A DNA stretch of 58,126 nucleotides, counting the filler, from a bacterium (lineage in GTDB: Bacteria; UBA9089; CG2-30-40-21; SBAY01), in the NCBI GenBank assembly GCA_040757115.1. It is 3 parts of 3 records of this genome, joined end to end, with 100 filler letters (N's around TTAATTAATTAA, not from the genome) between each part and the next. Parts side by side here need not be neighbours in the genome. Positions count along the whole stretch, not along the records: positions 1 to 19,449 come from JBFLYA010000057.1; 2 more parts are not named here. One strand, given 5' to 3'. The translations under genes and the position numbers were made by a program. Below, piece after piece: positions 3,837 through 58,126 of the stretch (positions are counted from its first letter, which is position 1; every line of letters starts with the position of its first letter). The notes beneath the pieces were generated by a model that was not told the origin of the DNA, searched no databases, and saw only the letters and a list, made by a program, of their open reading frames with translations.

Positions 3837-4057
3837 ATTATTATTTCGATACCTCAGCATTAGTAAAGATTTACCATCGTGAAGACGGAACAGACAGAGT
3901 ACTTGTTATCTATAAAGGTGATGAGCCAATTGCAATTTCTGAGTTAAGCCGTATCGAATTCATAGCCACCGTAATGCGAAAATATCGTGAGCAGGCAATT
4001 ACGCTCGACACACTTCAGTCGCTCCTAACAAAATTTGTAAGCGTTCAGGTGGTGTAA
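3833..4057 (+). pseudogene. VapC/PIN-domain toxin, truncated by MITE A
   Basis: YFDTSALVK..E PIN start; last residues (VSVQVV) come from MITE A, which begins at 4037. Confidence 0.8.
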
Positions 4058-4273
4058 CAAAAGGAGATGTGGAGATTAAGGAGATAGGGAGATATTATTA
4101 AAAAAATTGAAATTAATAGAAACTAATAGAAATTTATGGAAATTTGTTGTTTTCCACAATCAATTTCTACCTATTTCTATAAATTTCAATCTATTTCTAT
4201 TATCTTATCTCCATATCACTCTTATCTCCTTATCCCCTTTCTTACACTTTTGATATATAGCCTGAACGGTTAC
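4037..4273 (+). mobile_element. MITE A, full 237-bp copy, IS66-like ends
   Basis: Ends GTAAGCGTTCAGG / CCTGAACGGTTAC (12/13 inverted match); purine-rich left half mirrors pyrimidine-rich right half; five copies in window. Confidence 0.9.
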
Positions 4274-4358
4274 GAAAGTTTTGTAGTATCTCAAAAGGGT
4301 AATCGTGCAGACAAAGTTTAGTGGCAATTCTCCCCGCCGCCGCTGAACTCAGCGTTAA
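4274..4358 (+). other. Probable 3' half of a degenerate attC site
   Basis: Ends CCGCCGCTGAACTCAGCGTTAA, resembling the GCGGCTGAGCTCGGTCGTTAG arm at 40770-40790; related sequence at 8413-8465. Confidence 0.45.
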
Positions 4359-12166: not shown

Positions 12167-12326
12167 GATACCTGCTCTTTCCAGTAAAGAACTTGTCAGA
12201 TTATTGGAAAAAGGGGGAGTAGTATTTGTCAGACAGGGACCAACAGACCATGCTATATATTCAAGGATAGTTGAAGGAAGAAGATATTCTACTCCTGTCA
12301 GGCTCATTTTAAATCACGGGGCGTAG
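12159..12326 (+). pseudogene. HicA-family toxin, C-terminally truncated
   Basis: PALSSKELVRLLEK.G..FVRQG..H; only 55 aa and the stop lies inside tRNA-Pro. Confidence 0.7.
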
Positions 12327-12395
12327 CGCAGCTTGGTTTAGCGCACCAGCATGGGGGGCTGGGGGTCAGCGGTTCGAATCCGCTCGCCCCGACCA
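12317..12395 (+). tRNA. tRNA-Pro(GGG)
   Basis: CGGGGCG stem, CCAGC-ATGGGGG-GCTGG arm, GGTTCGAATC, CCA end. Confidence 0.92.
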
Positions 12396-12424
12396 GGTAA
12401 TTTATCAACTTATCCGGGCTGTAA

Positions 12425-13411
12425 CTATAGTTTGTTTAAAGTTTGAATAAAGGGTTGATAGGCAATACCTTTTTCCGTAATAATTGCTTTAATAAATTTA
12501 TTCGGGGTAACATCAAACGCGGGTGAATAAACATTTATTCCCTCAGGTGCAGTTCTTTTACCAAATCCATAAGTAATTTCGTCTGCTTCTCTTTCTTCTA
12601 TGGGAATTTGTGAGCCATCTTCTAATGACAAGTCAATTGTAGATGTAGGCGCAACAACATAAAAAGGAATATTATGTTCTTTGGCTAATACTGCCACGCC
12701 ATAGGTACCAATTTTATTAGCTGTATCGCCATTTTGGACGATTCTATCCGCACCAACGATAACGAGATTGATTTTCCCTTGTTTCATTACCATTGCGGCC
12801 ATATTATCACAGATTAATGTTACATCAATTCCTGCTTGCATTAATTCCCAGGTAGTTAATCTTGCACCTTGTAATAAAGGTCTTGTTTCATCTGCAAACA
12901 CCTTAATTTTCTTACCTTGTTTTTGGGCCGTGTATATAGCCGCAAGTGCCGTTCCTATGCCACCGGTGGCTAATGCCCCAGCATTACAATGAGTAAGAAT
13001 CGTATCACCATTTTTTATTAATGAGGCACCATATTCACCCATCTGGCGGCATTTTTCTCTATCATCCTCATGAATTGATTTAGCCTCTTTTAATAACGCC
13101 TCTTTTAATTCTGAGCCTTTATGATTTTTCGCACATTTCGCCATCCTTTGTAATGCCCAAAATAGATTAACTGCCGTTGGTCGAGTGCTCTCCAGAAGTT
13201 TAATACTCTGTTCTATTCTATTTACACCCAGGACAACGCCATAAGCCGCGGCAACACCAATAGCTGGTGCCCCTCGGACCCGTAATTTTTTTATTGCCTC
13301 GGCGACTTCATCCACAGTGCTACATTCTAAATAAACCAGTTCCTCTGGCAATTTCGTCTGGTCTATAATCTTTAATTTATCATCTTCCCATTTAATCGTT
13401 TCAACTATCAT
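12425..13411 (-). CDS. mtnA: Methylthioribose-1-phosphate isomerase
   Basis: VRGAPAIG, RPTAVNL, LTHCNAGALAT, DETRPLLQGARLT, ANKIGTY; likely start MIVETIKW. Confidence 0.95.
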   Translation of the reverse strand: MIVETIKWEDDKLKIIDQTKLPEELVYLECSTVDEVAEAIKKLRVRGAPAIGVAAAYGVVLGVNRIEQSIKLLESTRPTAVNLFWALQRMAKCAKNHKGSELKEALLKEAKSIHEDDREKCRQMGEYGASLIKNGDTILTHCNAGALATGGIGTALAAIYTAQKQGKKIKVFADETRPLLQGARLTTWELMQAGIDVTLICDNMAAMVMKQGKINLVIVGADRIVQNGDTANKIGTYGVAVLAKEHNIPFYVVAPTSTIDLSLEDGSQIPIEEREADEITYGFGKRTAPEGINVYSPAFDVTPNKFIKAIITEKGIAYQPFIQTLNKL

Positions 13412-13560
13412 AACCACGAATATTAACATAAAAATTGGGATTTGTCAATTTTTTTATTCTGACCGAAAAATAGACATAGGATAGAAAAAAACGATAAAAC
13501 CCCTTGTATTTTGATGAGTTTTGTGATATAATTATTATAACCACAATGGTTAAAAAAACT

Positions 13561-13777: not shown

Positions 13778-14024
13778 AAAAAACTGGTAATGGGGTAATG
13801 AGATAGAAAGAGAGAAGTTGTTTGAATTTGAGGGGATTGAGAGTGATTTAAGGGGGAGTCCGCTGTCTGCGTTGCTGAGGTAAGAGGCAAAAAGACAACC
13901 AAGCCCCAAAACAGGATATTTTTGTCAGTCGTACTATGTCAAACGGGTTAAAAAATGCCTTTATACAGGATAAAGAGGAGTATGACCATTTCTATGTCTA
14001 TTTTTCGGTTTCAAAAAATAATTG

Positions 14025-14120
14025 TTGACATTTGTTTAACACTATGGTATATATATCTCAAAACCCTATATCACCGGGCTATCGAGTCCCTATTAAAAAA
14101 TCTTAATTTGTGCCGTTGTT
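14025..14120 (+). promoter_or_regulatory. Promoter and possible orphan CRISPR leader
   Basis: TTGACA-17 nt-TATATA with extended -10; AT-rich tract ending in GTTGTTGAG upstream of csm genes; leader identity is inference. Confidence 0.35.
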
Positions 14121-14126
14121 GAGTAT

Positions 14127-14408
14127 AGATTCATTGATACATTAAAAAAAGAATTTCTCGATAAAGGAGATTTACTTTACGGTTCATTTGCCACTGGAGA
14201 AATTCACCAAGGAAGCGATATTGACATGGTCATTGTAGGTGAATTTAAGGGTAAGATATTTGAGCGGATAGAAAAGGTGCTAAAACTTACTGATTTACCT
14301 ATCGAGCCGCTTGTCTATTCTGAAAAGGAATTCCAGCAAATGAAGGAAGGCAATCCCTTCATAAAAGAGGTCATAAAGAGGGGGAAGATTTGCTATGCCA
14401 GAGAATGA
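14127..14408 (+). pseudogene. Minimal nucleotidyltransferase (MNT), 5'-truncated
   Basis: In-frame YGSFATGEIHQGSDID motif upstream of the listed ATG; no start codon before the in-frame stop at 14094. Confidence 0.75.
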
Positions 14409-14547
14409 AAAAAACCAATCAGACTACCAATCAATAATGTTAGCCGCACTTTTGCATGATATTGGCAAATTTATGCAAAGGGCAGAGGTTAAACTGAGTG
14501 CCCAGTCAGAAAGGATGAAGGAATACTTATGCCCTAAACATAAATAA
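14395..14547 (+). pseudogene. cas10: Cas10 N-terminal fragment carrying the HD motif
   Basis: MPENEKNQSDYQSIMLAALLHDIGKFMQRA...; stop TAA falls inside a 73-bp insertion. Confidence 0.9.
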
Positions 14548-14614
14548 TGGATAGTGTGTAGTTTTCCCTCCCAGTCAGTCAGAAAGGATGAAGGAATACT
14601 TATGCCCTAAACAT
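14503..14614 (+). repeat. 39-bp direct repeat enclosing a 34-bp unique insert inside cas10
   Basis: CAGTCAGAAAGGATGAAGGAATACTTATGCCCTAAACAT at 14503-14541 and 14576-14614. Confidence 0.95.
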
Positions 14615-17026
14615 CCACCAAAACATCCCAATGATGATGGTTATTCCCACAAACATACCCTCTGGACAAATGAATTCTTTGAACCTATAGTTTCAAACCT
14701 ACCTCCTGAAATCAATAAAACCGATGTAGTTAACCTATCAAGCTATCACCATAAGCCAGCCACAGATCTACAGACAATAATTCAAGAGGCTGATTGTTTA
14801 TCTGCTGGTGTAGATAGAACAACCAACGATGAAGAAGATGAGCAGTTTGGAAAAGATGCTTACAAAAAGAGAAGGTTACGAGCGATATTTGAACAGATTG
14901 AATTAAATTATCCTCTGAAACGAGACGAGAAAGGTAATCTAAAAAATATTTATCGTTACGAACTATTACCATTAAACTTACAAAAGCAAACTATCTTTCC
15001 TAAAAAACAGAGTAAACTTAGTCCACCTGAAGGTGAACTTTTAATAAATGAATATAATAACCTCTGGAAAGGGTTTATTAAAGAATTTAACCAGCTACCT
15101 GTTGACAACTTTGACCTCTTCTTTAACTCCCTTTATTATCTTCTACAAAAGTACACCTGGTGTATCCCTGCTTCAACTATTGACTTCCCAGATGTATCCT
15201 TATTTGACCACCTAAAGACTACTGCGGCTATCTCCGGATGTCTTTATAAATACCATTTACAAAATGAATCTTTTAATGAACAATCTATTAAAAATAGAGA
15301 TGTAGATAAGTACCTTTTGGTTTGTGGGGATATAAGCGGAATCCAGCAATTTATTTACAAGATTTCCTCCAAAGGAGCGGCAAAGGGATTAAAGGGAAGG
15401 TCATTCTACCTACAGATACTCCCAGATGCTATTGCTCACCATATCCTGCATAACACAGGGTATCATATAGTAAATCTGCTATATTCTGGTGGTGGTAAAT
15501 TCTATCTCTTGTTAGACCCCAACTCTGAAAACACCTTAAAGGATATTGGTAAAGAAGTTAACACCTATTTGTTGGAGCAATTTCAGGGAGGCGTATATCT
15601 TGCGTTAGGATGGTGTCATCTTAAAGGGAGTGATTTTGCTAAAAGGGAGAAGGTGGAAAGTGAATTTTATCTAAAATGGCAGGAATCTACCCGGGAGGCA
15701 AATAAGAAAAAAAGGCAGAAGTTCTCAGAATTTCTATATAATGAGGTTTTTGGTATTTTTGGTGAAGGAGCTGAAACGAAAACCTGCGAGATATGTAAAA
15801 ACGAAATAGTTGAGAATGAAACAAAATGTCCTGCTTGTGTCCTAAACGAAAAGATTGGGACAAGATTGGCAAAAGTAGGTAGAGGATTTATGTTAGAAAC
15901 CTATAACCAGGAAAAGGAAATTGATGAAGAGGGCTTTATTTTTGAACTATTAGGAATAAAATACTATCTTATCTCCAAAGATGAGATAAATAATATCAGA
16001 TCTGAACATGCAATGCTTTATACCATAAATACTACTGATATGTCCTTTATAAGGAAAGATATTACCTCTGGCTTCAAATTTATTGCTGGGAATTTCGCTC
16101 CTTCAGATAAAGAGGGAAATATTTTAACCTTTGGTGAATTAGCACAAAATTCCTCTGGTGGCTTAAAGAGATTAGGAATATTAAGAATGGATGTAGATAA
16201 TCTTGGTCAGATATTTATCAAAGGCTTGGGCAAGAAGGCTTCTATATCACGGGTAACTGAACTTAGTAGAAAATTGGAACTTTTCTTTGGGGGGTATCTG
16301 AATGAAATTGTCCAACAACAAAGTTATGACAATAAGGTTTATATCGTATATTCAGGTGGAGATGATCTCTTTATAGTAGGGGCATGGGATGTAATGCCTG
16401 AATTGGCAAGAGAGATACAGCAAGAATTTAAAACATTTACTTGCTCAAACCCTAATATTAGCTTATCTGGAGGTATTACCTTAATCCCTGGGAAATATCC
16501 CATCTATAAAGGTGCTGAATTAGCAGGGGAATCTGAAGAAGATGCAAAGAATTACAAAAGAAACGGAAAAGAAAAAGATGCGTTATCTTTCTTAAATACA
16601 GTAGTAAGCTGGAATGAATTTGAGGTAGCTTATGCAATTAAAGATATGCTGGTAAAATCTATAAAAGAAGGGAAAATAGATAATCTTTCCGGAGAAAATG
16701 TGTATCTAAAAAAGGGAATACTTGAACGATTGAGGCAAATTTATTTACTCTATCAGAAGAATAAAAATTTCTGGGAAACCAGGCAAACACAGATTAGTCA
16801 ACAAGAAATGCAAGAAAGAATTTACTACAACCAATGGTTATGGATGATGGTCTATTCCTTAGAAAGATATAGAGAACAGAATAAATTGTTTCAAGAGGAG
16901 GTGAGTCAGCTTATCCATGCTATCCTCGGTAAAGAATTTAACGGAATAAAGTCTGACCGCGAGGTCATTGATTTTATCAACTTACCTGCCCAGTGGGCAG
17001 AATTTTTAGTTAGAGAGGAGGGATAA
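14588..17026 (+). CDS. cas10: Cas10/Csm1 main body, lacking the HD motif
   Basis: DVSLFDHLKTTAAI, GDISGIQQFIY, LKGRSFY, MDVDNLG, YSGGDDLF. Confidence 0.93.
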   Translation: MKEYLCPKHPPKHPNDDGYSHKHTLWTNEFFEPIVSNLPPEINKTDVVNLSSYHHKPATDLQTIIQEADCLSAGVDRTTNDEEDEQFGKDAYKKRRLRAIFEQIELNYPLKRDEKGNLKNIYRYELLPLNLQKQTIFPKKQSKLSPPEGELLINEYNNLWKGFIKEFNQLPVDNFDLFFNSLYYLLQKYTWCIPASTIDFPDVSLFDHLKTTAAISGCLYKYHLQNESFNEQSIKNRDVDKYLLVCGDISGIQQFIYKISSKGAAKGLKGRSFYLQILPDAIAHHILHNTGYHIVNLLYSGGGKFYLLLDPNSENTLKDIGKEVNTYLLEQFQGGVYLALGWCHLKGSDFAKREKVESEFYLKWQESTREANKKKRQKFSEFLYNEVFGIFGEGAETKTCEICKNEIVENETKCPACVLNEKIGTRLAKVGRGFMLETYNQEKEIDEEGFIFELLGIKYYLISKDEINNIRSEHAMLYTINTTDMSFIRKDITSGFKFIAGNFAPSDKEGNILTFGELAQNSSGGLKRLGILRMDVDNLGQIFIKGLGKKASISRVTELSRKLELFFGGYLNEIVQQQSYDNKVYIVYSGGDDLFIVGAWDVMPELAREIQQEFKTFTCSNPNISLSGGITLIPGKYPIYKGAELAGESEEDAKNYKRNGKEKDALSFLNTVVSWNEFEVAYAIKDMLVKSIKEGKIDNLSGENVYLKKGILERLRQIYLLYQKNKNFWETRQTQISQQEMQERIYYNQWLWMMVYSLERYREQNKLFQEEVSQLIHAILGKEFNGIKSDREVIDFINLPAQWAEFLVREEG

Positions 17027-17028
17027 CC

Positions 17029-17439
17029 GTGCAAAATCAGGAAAGAATCTGGACAGAGCAACAGATTGAACAAATTATTAATGGTGACACAAAACAATTG
17101 GTGGCTACTGCAGAGAAGTTGGGTAAAGATTTGTGTGATAAGAAGGATGAGAGGGGTAATATTTTGTCTAAGGGAATGACCAAATCACAGATTAGGAATA
17201 TCTTTAATTCTGTTAAGCAGATGGAGATGAAAGGCTTCAATCCAAAAGATCTGTTATTGCTAAAGCCTAAACTGGCTTATGCTGCAGTTCGACCAGGAGC
17301 GACAAACGGAACCAGAGTGATTAAAGATATTCTTACTAAAGCAATTGATAAGGTAGGTGATGACGCTAAAAAATTTGATAATTTCTGCAACTTCTTTGAG
17401 GCTATCCTGGCTTATCACAGAGCCGCAGGCGGAAAATAA
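17029..17439 (+). CDS. csm2: Type III-A small subunit Csm2
   Basis: TKSQIRNIF, LKPKLAYAA.R, FFEAILAYHR. Confidence 0.93.
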   Translation: MQNQERIWTEQQIEQIINGDTKQLVATAEKLGKDLCDKKDERGNILSKGMTKSQIRNIFNSVKQMEMKGFNPKDLLLLKPKLAYAAVRPGATNGTRVIKDILTKAIDKVGDDAKKFDNFCNFFEAILAYHRAAGGK

Positions 17440-17450
17440 AAGGAGGTGTT

Positions 17451-18209
17451 TTGAAGATGGATAACGATTTTAAATTACTCAAGAAGATATTTATAACTGG
17501 CACAATAGAGGTAAAAACAGGGCTTTGTATCGGTGGAAGTAGTGTAGGATTAGAGATTGGAGGCGCAGATAAGGTTGTGGTAAGAAACCCCATCAATAAT
17601 CAACCCTATATCCCAGGCTCATCACTTAAAGGAAAGATGAGAAGTTTATTAGAAAGATTTGAGGGGAAAATGAGTATTAAAGAGAAAAAGGATGAAAAAG
17701 GCAACATCATTGGCGTGAGTGCTGAGCCTTGTGAATGTGGAACCTGTTTAATCTGCCAGATTTTTGGTCTTCCTGCAGAAAAAAAGGGAATGCCAGCCAG
17801 ACTGATTGTTCGAGATGGAATGTTACAAAATCCCGAATTGCTTGAAAAGAGTAAATTTACTGATATGCCCTATGCTGAGATTAAAGCAGAGGTGGTAATA
17901 GATAGGATTACTTCTGTCGCTACACCAAGAACCTTTGAACGGGTGCCAGCTGGTGCAAAGTTTAATCTTAACCTTGTATGTAATATCTATAACGGTGATA
18001 CAGAGTCAGATATCTTAAAGAAGATATTTGAATCACTTATCAAGGTTCAGGAGGATTATTTGGGAGGAAGTGGCACAAGGGGATATGGAGAGATAAAGAT
18101 TACAATCAATACGCCACTAAAATATAAAGACCAAACTGTCTATGAAGGGGATAATAATCCAAAAAGTATACAAAATAATAGCCTTATCCCTTCTCAGCTT
18201 CTTTCGTGA
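17451..18209 (+). CDS. csm3: Type III-A RAMP Csm3
   Basis: TGLCIGG..IGGADKVVVR, PYIPGSSLKGKMRSLLE, YLGGSGTRGYG. Confidence 0.95.
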   Translation: MKMDNDFKLLKKIFITGTIEVKTGLCIGGSSVGLEIGGADKVVVRNPINNQPYIPGSSLKGKMRSLLERFEGKMSIKEKKDEKGNIIGVSAEPCECGTCLICQIFGLPAEKKGMPARLIVRDGMLQNPELLEKSKFTDMPYAEIKAEVVIDRITSVATPRTFERVPAGAKFNLNLVCNIYNGDTESDILKKIFESLIKVQEDYLGGSGTRGYGEIKITINTPLKYKDQTVYEGDNNPKSIQNNSLIPSQLLS

Positions 18210-19210
18210 GGAAATGGAAGATGGAAGATATAACCGCATATAAACTTGAGTTTAAAACACCATTACATCTTGGTCAGGAAGGGATTGGATTAGAAAAGAC
18301 TGATATGATAATCCATTCAGATACCCTCTTTTCAGCTCTTCTCTCTTGTTGGAACCTATTTTATGCTGATGACTTGGAAAAGGAAATAATTAATAATCCA
18401 CCTTTTATCATCTCTTCTGCTTTCCCCTTTAGTAAAGATGACTATTTTCTTCCAAGACCTATGATAAGGATAACCCTGAACCAAGAGGTTCAATCTAAGC
18501 AGATAAAAAAGATTAGATTTATCTCAAAGGGGCTATTTGAAAGGATAATTATAGGTGAGGAGGTCTTGTTCACGGAAGAAAATACTCTACAAGGTGGTTT
18601 ATTCTGGACAGAAACACAAGACACATCTCAAGGAATATTTAAAAAGCGGGAGGTTCCCCGGGTAAGTATTGACCGACGAACAAATACCTCGGATATATTC
18701 TATTTTAATGAGCTGGTATTTACACAAGGTTGTGGTTTATTCTTTTTGGTTAAGTTCTTATCTCCCCAGATAAGACAAAAATTTGAAACGGTGCTAAACC
18801 TCATGGGAGATGAAGGAATAGGTGGTGATAAGCATCTGGGAAAGGGTGTATTTGATGTATTAAAGGATGAGCCGTTCAAATTAAACACACCATCACAAGC
18901 TAATCACTTTCTTACCCTCTCTCTGTTTCATCCTACAGAAGATGAGATAAAAAAAGGACTTCTTAATAATTCAAGCTATGAACTCATCCTTCGTAGGGGT
19001 TGGCTTCACTCTAAAGGTGCAATGAGCCTTAAGAGAAAAAGCATACGAATGTTTCTTGAAGGTTCTGTATTTAAAGAATTTGGCCAAAAGGGTTATGGCA
19101 ATATCCCAAATGTCCTGGAAAAAAATGAGGAACTAGGGACTAACCATAATGTCTATCGTTATGGAATAACCTTTAATATTCCTATCAAAGTGAGGGACAA
19201 TTATGAATAA
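18206..19210 (+). CDS. csm4: Type III-A RAMP Csm4
   Basis: PLHLG, HSDTLFSAL, ISSAFPF, GIGGDKHLGKG, EGSVF; start may be ATG at 18221. Confidence 0.92.
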   Translation: MRKWKMEDITAYKLEFKTPLHLGQEGIGLEKTDMIIHSDTLFSALLSCWNLFYADDLEKEIINNPPFIISSAFPFSKDDYFLPRPMIRITLNQEVQSKQIKKIRFISKGLFERIIIGEEVLFTEENTLQGGLFWTETQDTSQGIFKKREVPRVSIDRRTNTSDIFYFNELVFTQGCGLFFLVKFLSPQIRQKFETVLNLMGDEGIGGDKHLGKGVFDVLKDEPFKLNTPSQANHFLTLSLFHPTEDEIKKGLLNNSSYELILRRGWLHSKGAMSLKRKSIRMFLEGSVFKEFGQKGYGNIPNVLEKNEELGTNHNVYRYGITFNIPIKVRDNYE

Positions 19211-19349
19211 ATATAATATCTCTGTTTTAAGCCCAATTCATATTGGAAATGGAAATAAATTAAGCACGATAGATTTTGTCTATGACAATAATACCCTTTG
19301 GATTATTGACATTGAAAAGGTTATACTCGATGTTCAAGTTTTTGGATAG
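19203..19349 (+). pseudogene. csm5: Csm5, truncated after about 40 native codons
   Basis: MNKYNISVLSPIHIGNG RAMP start overlapping the csm4 stop; stops after 48 aa, 100 nt before the contig end. Confidence 0.8.
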
Positions 19350-19449
19350 GACTCAATATGATAGAAGTTTTTGGCACGAATTAGCTAAATAAAGAAAGGT
19401 CTTTTGCCGATAGTAGAAATAGTGTGAAGACACGAAATTTACTATTCGG
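19322..19449. mobile_element. Probable IS end interrupting csm5
   Basis: Apparently non-coding sequence starting TATACTC at the truncation point and running into the contig break. Confidence 0.4.
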
Positions 19450-19549
19450 NNNNNNNNNNNNNNNNNNNNNNNNNNNNNNNNNNNNNNNNNNNNTTAATTA
19501 ATTAANNNNNNNNNNNNNNNNNNNNNNNNNNNNNNNNNNNNNNNNNNNN
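19450..19549. other. Artificial contig linker
   Basis: 44 N + TTAATTAATTAA (stops in all frames) + 44 N. Confidence 0.97.
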
Positions 19550-19670
19550 GTGGAAAACAACAAATTTCCATAAATTTCTATTAGTTTCTATTAATTTCAA
19601 TTTTTTTAATAATATCTCCCTATCTCCTTAATCTCCACATCTCCTTTTGTTACACCACCTGAACGCTTAC
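19550..19670 (-). mobile_element. MITE A, partial copy at contig edge
   Basis: Identical to 2-122. Confidence 0.9.
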
Positions 19671-19756
19671 TAAAATCGGAGTAACTATTCACCGCAGAAA
19701 CGCCAGAGTTCGCAAGGACGAAATACTTCGATTATCATCCTAAAATGAGAGTATAA

Positions 19757-38867: not shown

Positions 38868-38967
38868 NNNNNNNNNNNNNNNNNNNNNNNNNNNNNNNNN
38901 NNNNNNNNNNNTTAATTAATTAANNNNNNNNNNNNNNNNNNNNNNNNNNNNNNNNNNNNNNNNNNNN
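38868..38967. other. Artificial contig linker
   Basis: 44 N + TTAATTAATTAA + 44 N. Confidence 0.97.
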
Positions 38968-41405: not shown

Positions 41406-41505
41406 NNNNNNNNNNNNNNNNNNNNNNNNNNNNNNNNNNNNNNNNNNNNNNNNNNNNNNNNNNNNNNNNNNNNNNNNNNNNNNNNNNNNNNNNNNNNNNN
41501 NNNNN
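41406..41505. other. Scaffold gap
   Basis: 100 N. Confidence 0.97.
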
Positions 41506-57900: not shown

Positions 57901-57922
57901 TGTCCTCCTCTAATCAAAGTTT

Positions 57923-58126
57923 GTAAGCGTTCAGGTGGTGTAACAAAAGGAGATGTGGAGATTAAGGAGATAGGGAGATATTATTAAAAAAATTGAAATT
58001 AATAGAAACTAATAGAAATTTATGGAAATTTGTTGTTTTCCACAATCAATTTCTACCTATTTCTATAAATTTCAATCTATTTCTATTATCTTATCTCCAT
58101 ATCACTCTTATCTCCTTATCCCCTTT
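57923..58126 (+). mobile_element. MITE A, copy running off the window end
   Basis: Matches the first 204 nt of 4037-4273. Confidence 0.9.

What the first reader, a model, noticed from the sequence alone, without database searches (positions are those of the whole stretch)
14395..14614. cas10 split by a repeat-spacer-repeat-shaped insertion
Seen: a 39-bp stretch of cas10 is duplicated exactly (14503-14541, 14576-14614) around a 34-bp unique sequence AAATAATGGATAGTGTGTAGTTTTCCCTCCCAGT. The 73-bp gain adds a stop and a frameshift. Removing it restores one 852-aa ORF from ATG 14395 that includes the LLHDIGK HD motif. Established: Cas1-Cas2 integration duplicates a repeat-length target around a spacer of roughly 30-40 bp, whereas IS TSDs are far shorter. 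Inference: off-target spacer integration into the system's own cas10. If ATG 14588 is used, the product would be HD-less with an intact GGDD cyclase. Caveat: the insert ends in CCCAGT, matching the sequence at the start of copy 1, so slippage or repair with filler DNA is a real alternative.
Basis: partly seen in the sequence, partly recalled or inferred. Interest (0 to 1): 0.78.

Follow-up and report, generated by a model that had tools for sequence, protein, structure and literature searches.

The report
cas10 split by spacer-like insertion
A CRISPR defence gene (cas10) of an uncultured bacterium is broken by a real 73-base insertion shaped like a CRISPR repeat-spacer-repeat unit, whose middle part is copied from a small regulatory RNA gene family; whether the CRISPR integrase itself made it cannot yet be decided.

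Summary
An exact 39-bp duplication (14503-14541, 14576-14614) flanks a 34-nt insert in a type III-A cas10/csm1. Removing the 73 bp gives an 852-codon frame colinear with homologues. An independent k=31 assembly of one run has the junctions: depth is 346 on the insert, 308 and 306 on the flanks, and 689 on the 39-mer. So the insertion is real and close to fixed.

New: the insert is not anonymous. Its last 30 nt are 94% identical to a conserved, structured, terminator-bearing small-RNA gene. That gene is in 10 of 11 genomes of the host's order and is not in Rfam.

The Cas1-Cas2 reading is plausible but unproven. The 34-nt length fits local spacers. The 39-bp duplication matches no repeat in a near-conspecific genome (32 and 37 nt), nor any of 37 arrays beside related III-A loci (at most 37 nt). 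The target does not resemble those repeats. The window's own genome is not held, so its cas1 and arrays are unseen.

The rival is template switching. It uses the CCCAGT identity between insert end and target, plus a 4-nt slip.

My odds: integrase about 0.4, template switch about 0.3. csm5 is also truncated, so the locus looks to be decaying.

The parts
14395..14547 (+). 5' fragment of cas10/csm1: 50 codons plus TAA, carrying the HD motif LLHDIGK
   Evidence: ORF and translation; aligns with the N-termini of 18 homologues.
14503..14541 (+). Copy 1 of the exact 39-bp duplication (original cas10 sequence)
   Evidence: In one search the 39-mer piece has about twice the flank depth (689 against 308 and 306).
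14542..14575 (+). 34-nt insert, unique in the window; it introduces the stop and, together with copy 2, a +1 frameshift
   Evidence: In one search a 94-nt contig spans both junctions at depth 346.
14546..14575 (+). Part of the insert homologous to a conserved small-RNA gene family: the 5' arm of hairpin 1 plus most of its C-rich apical loop, in the sense orientation
   Evidence: 94% identity over 30 nt to G002:C279 and G005:C78, and 93% over 26 nt to G001:C509; exact shared 19-mer; alignment and structure.
14576..14614 (+). Copy 2 of the 39-bp duplication; it contains ATG 14588
14588..17026 (+). 3' fragment of cas10/csm1: 812 codons, open, with palm and GGDD but without the HD dyad
   Evidence: TIGR02578 Cas10/Csm1, E 7.8e-200. 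PF22335 and PF18211; homologues of 829-854 aa cover 98-100% of it.
17029..17439 (+). csm2
   Evidence: TIGR01870, PF03750.
17451..18209 (+). csm3
   Evidence: TIGR02582, E 3.6e-63.
18206..19210 (+). csm4
   Evidence: TIGR01903, E 1.8e-81.
19203..19349 (+). csm5 truncated after 48 codons; the contig ends at 19449
   Evidence: translation. TIGR01899 positions 3-42 of 364 only. Csm5 of related loci is 529-532 aa.

Best explanation
A discrete fragment of about 34 bp was pasted into a break in cas10 staggered by 39 bp. At least 26-30 of its bases are copied from a member of a conserved small-RNA gene family. Filling the two single-stranded flanks duplicated the 39 bp. The enzyme known to do this at that scale is the CRISPR integrase Cas1-Cas2, so I take off-target spacer integration as the single most likely cause. 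The result is a knockout of the HD nuclease active site of Cas10. The 812-codon remainder (palm/GGDD) could only be made by weak re-initiation at ATG 14588. The allele is close to fixed in the sampled population. Together with the truncated csm5, it marks a type III-A locus that is being lost. Shown: the anatomy, the fixation, the origin of the insert and the gene break. Inferred: the enzyme, the staggered break, and any residual Cas10 activity.
For: Geometry: an exact 39-bp target duplication lies around a 34-nt insert, and no bases are shared as overlap at either junction. The unit of 73 bp equals the commonest period of type III arrays nearby: periods 73, 75 and 76 in G001:C761, and 36-37-nt repeats with spacer medians of about 33-42 nt beside related loci. 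The 34 nt falls within the spacer range of the type I-C arrays of G001 (31-37 nt). G001 is 97-99% identical to the window on shared genes. G001 carries cas1 and large arrays. The closest related III-A locus (L037, Cas10 48% identical) has csm5, csm6, a CRISPR-associated primase-polymerase, cas1, cas2 and an array just where the window's contig breaks off. The insert differs from the G001 orthologue of the small RNA: in the 26-nt core by 1 mismatch and 1 indel, and it shares only 3 of the first 8 nt. A paralogous or foreign family member is therefore the source, as expected for a captured fragment. Ku was not found in G001, which weakens end-joining alternatives. Off-target integration is known in vivo for E. 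coli (Nivala 2018, as cited in passages of 10.1101/148544, PMC7054753 and PMC11788318). It is known in vitro for P. furiosus (PMC6698737 passages) and for a type III-A Cas1-Cas2 (PMC13769266, abstract and passages).
Against: 39 bp equals no repeat length seen: 32 and 37 nt in G001, and 0 of 37 arrays in the 80 related loci exceed 37 nt. The duplicated 39-mer is no more similar to G001's two repeats than other 39-mers of the contig: the fraction scoring at least as high is 0.43-0.90 over four comparisons. The last 6 nt of the insert (CCCAGT) equal 14501-14506 at the left border. Under this model that is coincidence, which I estimate at roughly 1 in 100 (my own rough count of registers, not a tool result). 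The window's own cas1, cas2 and arrays were not seen. No phage or plasmid source was found. A 37/36 event would look like 39/34 if two end bases matched by chance (about 3 in 16). The relatives' small RNAs do not support that reading at the right end.
Confidence: 0.4

Rival explanations
1. Replication or repair template switching (MMBIR/FoSTeS-like). A nascent cas10 strand left its template after 14541 and copied about 28-34 nt from the small-RNA gene. It then re-annealed 41 nt back through the CCCAGT shared by source and target, and slipped back 4 nt on the CAGTCAG mini-repeat. This re-copied the stretch and created the duplication.
For: The insert ends in CCCAGT. That is part of the invariant loop of the small-RNA family and is identical to 14501-14506. 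Read directly from the sequence, annealing there plus one 4-nt backward slip on CAGTCAG reproduces the observed junction exactly. The insert has one base fewer in the T/C run than every family member seen, as sloppy synthesis would give. The first 4-8 nt of the insert are not explained by any relative, and composite fillers are typical of such events.
Against: The microhomology is not used as a simple overlap, so an extra slip has to be assumed. No microhomology can be shown at the left junction. The template lies at another locus: in G001 the small-RNA gene is on a different contig. The insert does not match the near-conspecific orthologue well. That both sizes fall in the CRISPR range (39 and 34, sum 73) would be chance.
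Confidence: 0.3
2. RNA-templated insertion. The transcript of the small RNA was reverse-transcribed from its single-stranded apical loop to its 5' end, by a group II intron reverse transcriptase or a CRISPR-associated polymerase, at a nick or gap in cas10. The CCCAGU of the loop would pair with the cas10 3' end.
For: In alignment A3 the insert runs from 2 nt before the base of hairpin 1 to 2 nt before the end of its 17-nt loop. That is roughly from the predicted 5' end of the RNA to its only long unpaired stretch. The sense strand of the RNA lies on the cas10 coding strand. G001 encodes a group II intron reverse transcriptase/maturase.
Against: The 5' end of the RNA is only predicted. The sigma-70 scan found no promoter on that strand, and no RNA run is available. 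Only 3-4 of the insert's first 8 nt match the relatives. There is the same extra CAGT problem as in the template-switch model. No RT-Cas1 fusion was seen: the single cas1 of G001 is type I-C.
Confidence: 0.1
3. Two nicks 39 nt apart, made by some other nuclease, gave a staggered double-strand break. Its ends were filled in and joined, with a stray DNA fragment captured between them.
For: This would give the same final anatomy. Both junctions are blunt, with no overlap.
Against: Ku was not found in the near-conspecific G001, which is 100% complete by marker genes. No known bacterial pathway gives this outcome routinely. The CRISPR-like sizes would be coincidence.
Confidence: 0.1
4. Assembly or sequencing artefact.
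For: Only one run holds the stretch, and it may be the source sample. With k=31 a wild-type allele shares all its words with the insertion allele, so a minority wild type cannot be seen.
Against: A second assembler gives an unbranched 94-nt contig across both junctions at depth 346, against 308 and 306 for the flanks, with the 39-mer at 689, about twice the flanks. The identities between cas10 and the small-RNA gene are only 6-7 nt, far below any assembler's word size.
Confidence: 0.03

Closest known systems
Non-canonical (off-target) spacer integration by Cas1-Cas2, 'neo-CRISPR' (Nivala, Shipman and Church 2018, Nat Microbiol). The paper itself is not held. I know it from citing passages in 10.1101/148544, PMC6698737, PMC7054753 and PMC11788318.
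   Same: A spacer-sized insert is flanked by an exact duplication of a repeat-sized stretch of ordinary chromosomal DNA, giving a repeat-spacer-repeat shape outside any array.
   Different: There the duplication has the length of the system's repeat (recalled, not checked). Here 39 bp matches no repeat seen in relatives (32, 36-37 nt). Those events were made with over-produced Cas1-Cas2. Here it is a natural, near-fixed allele inside the system's own cas10, and the integrase of this genome is unseen.
Promiscuous in-vitro integration by type III-A Cas1-Cas2 of Thermotoga profunda (PMC13769266, abstract and passages) and by P. furiosus Cas1-Cas2 (PMC6698737, passages)
   Same: Type III-A and other integrases insert spacers at non-CRISPR sites when host factors or repeat motifs are missing.
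   Different: In P. furiosus the off-target sites share sequence features with the repeat. Here no such likeness was found with the proxy repeats.
Spacer capture from RNA by reverse transcriptase-Cas1 fusions (10.1101/2020.10.18.344481, search listing only; Silas et al. 2016, recalled) and CRISPR-associated primase-polymerases (PMC8211822, search listing only)
   Same: Type III-linked adaptation modules with their own polymerase exist. The closest related locus, L037, carries such a primase-polymerase next to cas1 and cas2. The insert here corresponds to the 5' part of a probable abundant small RNA.
   Different: No RT-Cas1 was found in the near-conspecific genome. An RNA origin of the insert is only an inference from its borders.
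Microhomology-mediated template switching (FoSTeS/MMBIR, quasipalindrome switching; recalled from general knowledge)
   Same: A duplication occurs together with a short templated insertion from elsewhere, and there is a short identity (CCCAGT) at one junction.
   Different: The identity is not consumed as an overlap, so a further 4-nt slip is needed. The template lies at a distant locus.
IS or MITE insertion with target-site duplication
   Same: An insertion flanked by direct repeats that breaks a gene.
   Different: There are no terminal inverted repeats and no transposase. The insert is single-copy, with 1 match in the window and none in G001 apart from the small-RNA gene. Its 34 nt is far too short, and a 39-bp duplication is far longer than transposase duplications.

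Membership tests
Type III-A Cas10/Csm1 | Match to the family model, with the Csm1-specific domain and palm domain | tested here: met
   TIGR02578, E 7.8e-200, 666 bits against a cut-off of 170. PF18211 and PF22335.
Type III-A Cas10/Csm1 | N-terminal HD motif and GGDD cyclase motif in one polypeptide | tested here: not met
   The HD dyad lies in the 50-aa fragment and GGDD in the 812-aa fragment. The two are joined only if the 73 bp are removed.
Type III-A Cas10/Csm1 | Operon with csm2, csm3, csm4 and csm5 | tested here: met
   csm2, csm3 and csm4 are intact; csm5 is present but cut after 48 codons.
Cas1-Cas2 off-target spacer integration | Exact duplication of the target flanking a single insert, with no overlap at the junctions | tested here: met
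Cas1-Cas2 off-target spacer integration | Insert length within the system's spacer range | tested here: met
   The insert is 34 nt. The I-C spacers of G001 are 31-37 nt. Spacer medians beside related III-A loci are about 33-42 nt. These are proxies, not the genome's own arrays.
Cas1-Cas2 off-target spacer integration | Duplication length equal to the system's repeat length | tested here: not met
   39 bp against 32 and 37 nt in G001. Of 37 arrays, 0 have repeats above 37 nt.
Cas1-Cas2 off-target spacer integration | cas1 and cas2 present in the same genome | not testable with these tools
   The window's own assembly is not held and the contig ends in csm5. G001 has one cas1. The related locus L037 has cas1 and cas2 downstream of csm6.
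Cas1-Cas2 off-target spacer integration | Target resembles the repeat or the leader-repeat junction | tested here: not met
   the score of the duplicated 39-mer against G001's two repeats, on both strands, is reached by 43-90% of all 39-mers of the contig.
Template-switch insertion-duplication | Microhomology at both switch points | tested here: inconclusive
   There is a 6-nt identity at the right junction, but with 4 extra bases. The left junction cannot be judged without the true source.
Template-switch insertion-duplication | Insert templated from another place in the genome | tested here: inconclusive
   The insert is homologous to a small-RNA gene family of the order. No exact source was found.
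IS/MITE insertion | Terminal inverted repeats, multiple copies, short target duplication | tested here: not met
Structured small-RNA gene (source of the insert) | Conserved sequence, compensatory base changes, intrinsic terminator | tested here: met
   present in 10 of 11 genomes of the order; 16 sequences, 31 pairs, 10 with changes on both sides; a terminator on the + strand; no Rfam family. A promoter was not detected by the consensus scan.

The most novel reading that the evidence does not exclude
The adaptation module of this type III-A system (Cas1-Cas2, perhaps with its primase-polymerase) captured a piece of a small regulatory RNA, or of its gene, from a paralogous or foreign family member. 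It integrated that piece not into its array but into its own cas10. This is a natural, near-fixed record of suicidal off-target spacer integration that removed the HD nuclease. It also shows that the ruler which sets repeat length can drift by 2-3 bp at non-CRISPR sites.
Probability: 0.2. Interest if true: 0.8.

Novelty: new member of a known kind. Interest (0 to 1): 0.55.

Why it matters
Off-target spacer integration has been proposed as the origin of new CRISPR arrays and as a cost of carrying Cas1-Cas2, but natural examples are few. A near-fixed repeat-spacer-repeat unit inside the system's own effector gene would be a clean natural case. It would also show one way in which CRISPR systems disable themselves. 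The case can be tested: the missing data are the rest of this genome and an integration assay. Whatever the mechanism, the work shows that the 'spacer' comes from a conserved, unannotated small-RNA family with a C-rich (anti-Shine-Dalgarno-like) loop, which is a finding in its own right. If the cause is template switching, this is an ordinary though unusually tidy pseudogenising mutation.

Tried and rejected
- Exact search for the 34-mer in metagenome, genome and viral contig collections gave 0 hits each.
- No RNA holder is listed for the stretch. Runs X2 and X3 of the same study hold none of it.
- The window's own genome is not held, so its arrays, cas1 and small-RNA copies could not be read.
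- A better source for the insert was sought in all 24 held genomes of the phylum. The invariant 24-mer of the small-RNA loop was searched in metagenome contigs (2 further copies, both of another subtype) and in viral contigs (0). None has the insert's 5' part.
- Rfam gave no family at the element, only two chance miRNA rows elsewhere in L008.
- The sigma-70 scan found no + strand promoter upstream of the small RNA. Its 5' end therefore rests only on a conserved TATAAT-like box and the base of the stem.
- Likeness of the 39-mer to G001's repeats: none.
- Neighbours of the small-RNA genes are ordinary genes: pilin-like, glycosylase, RNA ligase, FapA, LysR, FtsH, aspartokinase and anthranilate synthase. 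None is a cas gene or a mobile element.
- A type I-C PAM next to the source: TTC lies 3' of the homologous stretch in relatives, which is the wrong side by my recollection of the I-C motif. This was judged by eye and gives no support.
- IS/MITE reading: rejected.
- No close orthologue of this Cas10 exists in the phylum: best local identity 37-40% in 7 of 24 genomes, and G001's own Cas10 is 30% identical. The locus looks horizontally acquired, with its nearest relatives at 56% and 46-50% identity in metagenomes and Deltaproteobacteria MAGs.
- The last 120 nt of the contig match nothing else in the window or the fetched loci.
- The Nivala 2018 paper is not held. Its details on duplication length are recalled, and its supplements were not seen.

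Full report
**What is there**

Bases 14503-14541 and 14576-14614 are identical over 39 nt, and they enclose 34 nt at 14542-14575. The bases just outside the two copies differ on both sides, so the borders are sharp. The 34-mer occurs once in the window even with 3 mismatches allowed. Of the 15 direct-repeat families in the whole window, this is the only exact pair at short range.

The gene is a type III-A cas10/csm1 (TIGR02578, E 7.8e-200). It is followed by csm2, csm3 and csm4. The frame from ATG 14395 stops after 50 codons, and a second frame runs from ATG 14588 for 812 codons. Removing 14542-14614 in a script gives 852 codons. These align without a break with all 18 homologues compared, through the conserved HD region. 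The HD dyad lies in the short piece and GGDD in the long one.

**The window is composite**

N spacers at 19450-19549 and 38868-38967 join three contigs. The cas10 contig is 1-19449. It ends 100 nt after a csm5 that stops at codon 49. Csm5 in related loci has 529-532 residues. Whatever lies downstream is therefore simply not in view. In the closest related locus, L037, that region holds csm6, a CRISPR-associated primase-polymerase, cas1, cas2 and the array.

**Is it real?**

One public run (X1) holds the stretch. Its Logan contigs (k=31) break exactly as a 39-bp repeat predicts:
- left flank to 14532, depth 308;
- an unbranched 94-nt piece, 14512-14605, across both junctions, depth 346;
- the 39-mer alone, depth 689;
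- right flank from 14585, depth 306.

So the insert is as deep as the flanks and the repeat is twice as deep. The allele is real and near fixed. X1 may be the source sample, so this is a second assembler and not second data. A wild-type minority of about a tenth or less could not be seen this way.

**Where the insert comes from**

Exact searches of three collections found nothing. A BLAST of 14528-14590 against 30 relatives placed 14546-14575 at 94% identity (30 nt) in G002 and G005, and at 93% (26 nt) in G001. All three hits are in the same kind of element. There is an exact shared 19-mer.

The element is a gene-sized unit of about 150 bp:
- a conserved upstream block with a TATAAT-like box;
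- a hairpin of about 19 pairs with an invariant 17-nt C-rich loop;
- a second hairpin followed by a T-run.

It is present in 10 of 11 held genomes of the order, with two or three copies in some. It sits between ordinary genes. An alignment of 16 copies gives 31 pairs, 10 of them with compensatory changes. The terminator is found by the scan, but a sigma-70 promoter is not. Rfam has no family for it. I read it as an unannotated trans-acting small RNA.

The insert covers alignment columns 7-42. That runs from 2 nt before the base of hairpin 1 to 2 nt before the end of its loop, in the sense orientation. Its first 8 nt match the relatives at only 3-4 positions, which is chance level. Its T/C run is one base shorter than in every copy seen. 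G001 is 97-99% identical to the window on shared genes. Its orthologue differs from the insert at one further core position. The source is thus an unsampled family member, either paralogous or foreign. The family's 5' arm is variable and its loop invariant, which is the pattern of matches observed.

**The ruler test**

G001 has one cas1. It lies in a type I-C operon with arrays of 32-nt repeats and 31-37-nt spacers. G001 also has a different type III-A locus (Cas10 30% identical) with small arrays of 37-nt repeats and periods of 73-83.

No close orthologue of the window's Cas10 exists in the 24 genomes of the phylum. Its nearest relatives, at 46-56% identity, are in metagenomes and Deltaproteobacteria MAGs. 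In the 80 related loci fetched, my simple array finder found 37 arrays in 31 loci. Repeats were 37 nt in 18 arrays and 36 nt in 8, and none exceeded 37 nt. Some shorter values are probably partial detections.

So 34 nt is a normal spacer and the 73-bp unit is the normal period, but 39 bp is 2-7 bp too long. A 37/36 event would look like 39/34 if two end bases matched the flank by chance, which I estimate at about 3 in 16. The relatives' small RNAs do not back this at the right end. The duplicated 39-mer is not repeat-like.

**Mechanisms**

For integration:
- the geometry, with blunt junctions;
- spacer-like size;
- a non-orthologous source;
- an adaptation module in the nearest related locus;
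- published off-target integration in vivo and in vitro (passages in 10.1101/148544, PMC7054753, PMC11788318, PMC6698737; PMC13769266).

Against integration:
- the 39-bp length;
- no likeness of the target to the repeats;
- an unseen integrase;
- the CCCAGT identity between the insert's end and 14501-14506.

That identity supports template switching. A nascent strand ending in CCCAGT can pair at 14501-14506. One 4-nt backward slip on CAGTCAG then reproduces the observed junction exactly, as can be read. This model needs the extra slip and a remote template. It also makes the CRISPR-like sizes a coincidence.

An RNA-templated version fits the insert's borders, which run from the predicted 5' end to the loop. 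G001 has a group II intron reverse transcriptase. But the RNA's 5' end is unproven and the first 8 nt do not match. End joining is weakened because Ku was not found in G001.

My odds are: integrase 0.4, DNA template switch 0.3, RNA-templated 0.1, other staggered break 0.1, artefact 0.03.

**Consequence**

The HD active site is split. ATG 14588 has its only purine-rich stretch directly abutting it, and the upstream stop lies 40 nt before it. Any 812-aa, HD-less, cyclase-competent product would therefore depend on weak re-initiation. With csm5 truncated too, the simplest reading is a horizontally acquired III-A locus on its way out.

**Verdict**

The new fact is that the 'spacer' is a copy of a conserved small-RNA gene family. 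This is a new member of a known kind if integration holds, and an ordinary mutation if not.

Noticed in passing
L015:1446-1592 (G005:C78), L016, L017, L018 and 12 further loci; homologous to window 14546-14575: An unannotated small-RNA gene family of about 95 nt. It has a hairpin with an invariant C-rich loop (CCCCUCCC, complementary to Shine-Dalgarno sequences) followed by a terminator hairpin. It is found in 10 of 11 genomes of the order, with 2-3 paralogues in some. 10 of 31 pairs show compensatory changes. There is no Rfam match.
   Followed up: partly
window 19450-19549, 38868-38967, 41406-41505: The window is three contigs joined by spacers of N44 + TTAATTAATTAA + N44, plus one 100-N scaffold gap. 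Gene neighbourhoods must not be read across these points.
   Followed up: yes
window 19203-19449: csm5 stops after 48 codons. The remaining 100 nt of the contig are not csm5-like and match nothing else fetched. They contain a TTTTGCCGATA motif like the conserved block upstream of the small-RNA genes. This may be a second lesion of the locus, or the edge of an unassembled insertion.
   Followed up: partly
window 4022-4285 and 57908-58126; inverse part at 1-127 and 19550-19675: A MITE-like element of about 250 bp with dozens of copies at 93-100% identity in the near-conspecific genome G001. Contigs start and end in it, so it probably causes the fragmentation of these assemblies (G001 has 770 contigs).
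   Followed up: partly
window 12298-13462 against G001:C157:6199-18735: In G001 about 11 kb separate the sequences that adjoin mtnA in the window. The window's III-A locus (13.7-19.4 kb) has no counterpart in G001 apart from 83 bp at 81% identity in the HD region. The locus is therefore strain-specific and probably horizontally acquired.
   Followed up: partly
L037:11566-14995 (JAFDHO010000095.1): The closest related III-A locus carries a CRISPR-associated primase-polymerase (NF040561, E 2.4e-88) between csm6 and cas1. Its cas1 is read as two ORFs (206 and 175 aa), and two cas2 genes follow.
   Followed up: no
window 13955-14122 and 14226-14408: Two small ORFs (55 and 60 aa) lie just upstream of cas10, the second overlapping its start. 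Neither has a Pfam or NCBIfam match.
   Followed up: partly
L003:19514-19645 and L004:1148-1277 (G001:C2): The type I-C array of G001 contains two cases of an identical spacer present twice in tandem (repeat-spacer units 100% identical).
   Followed up: no
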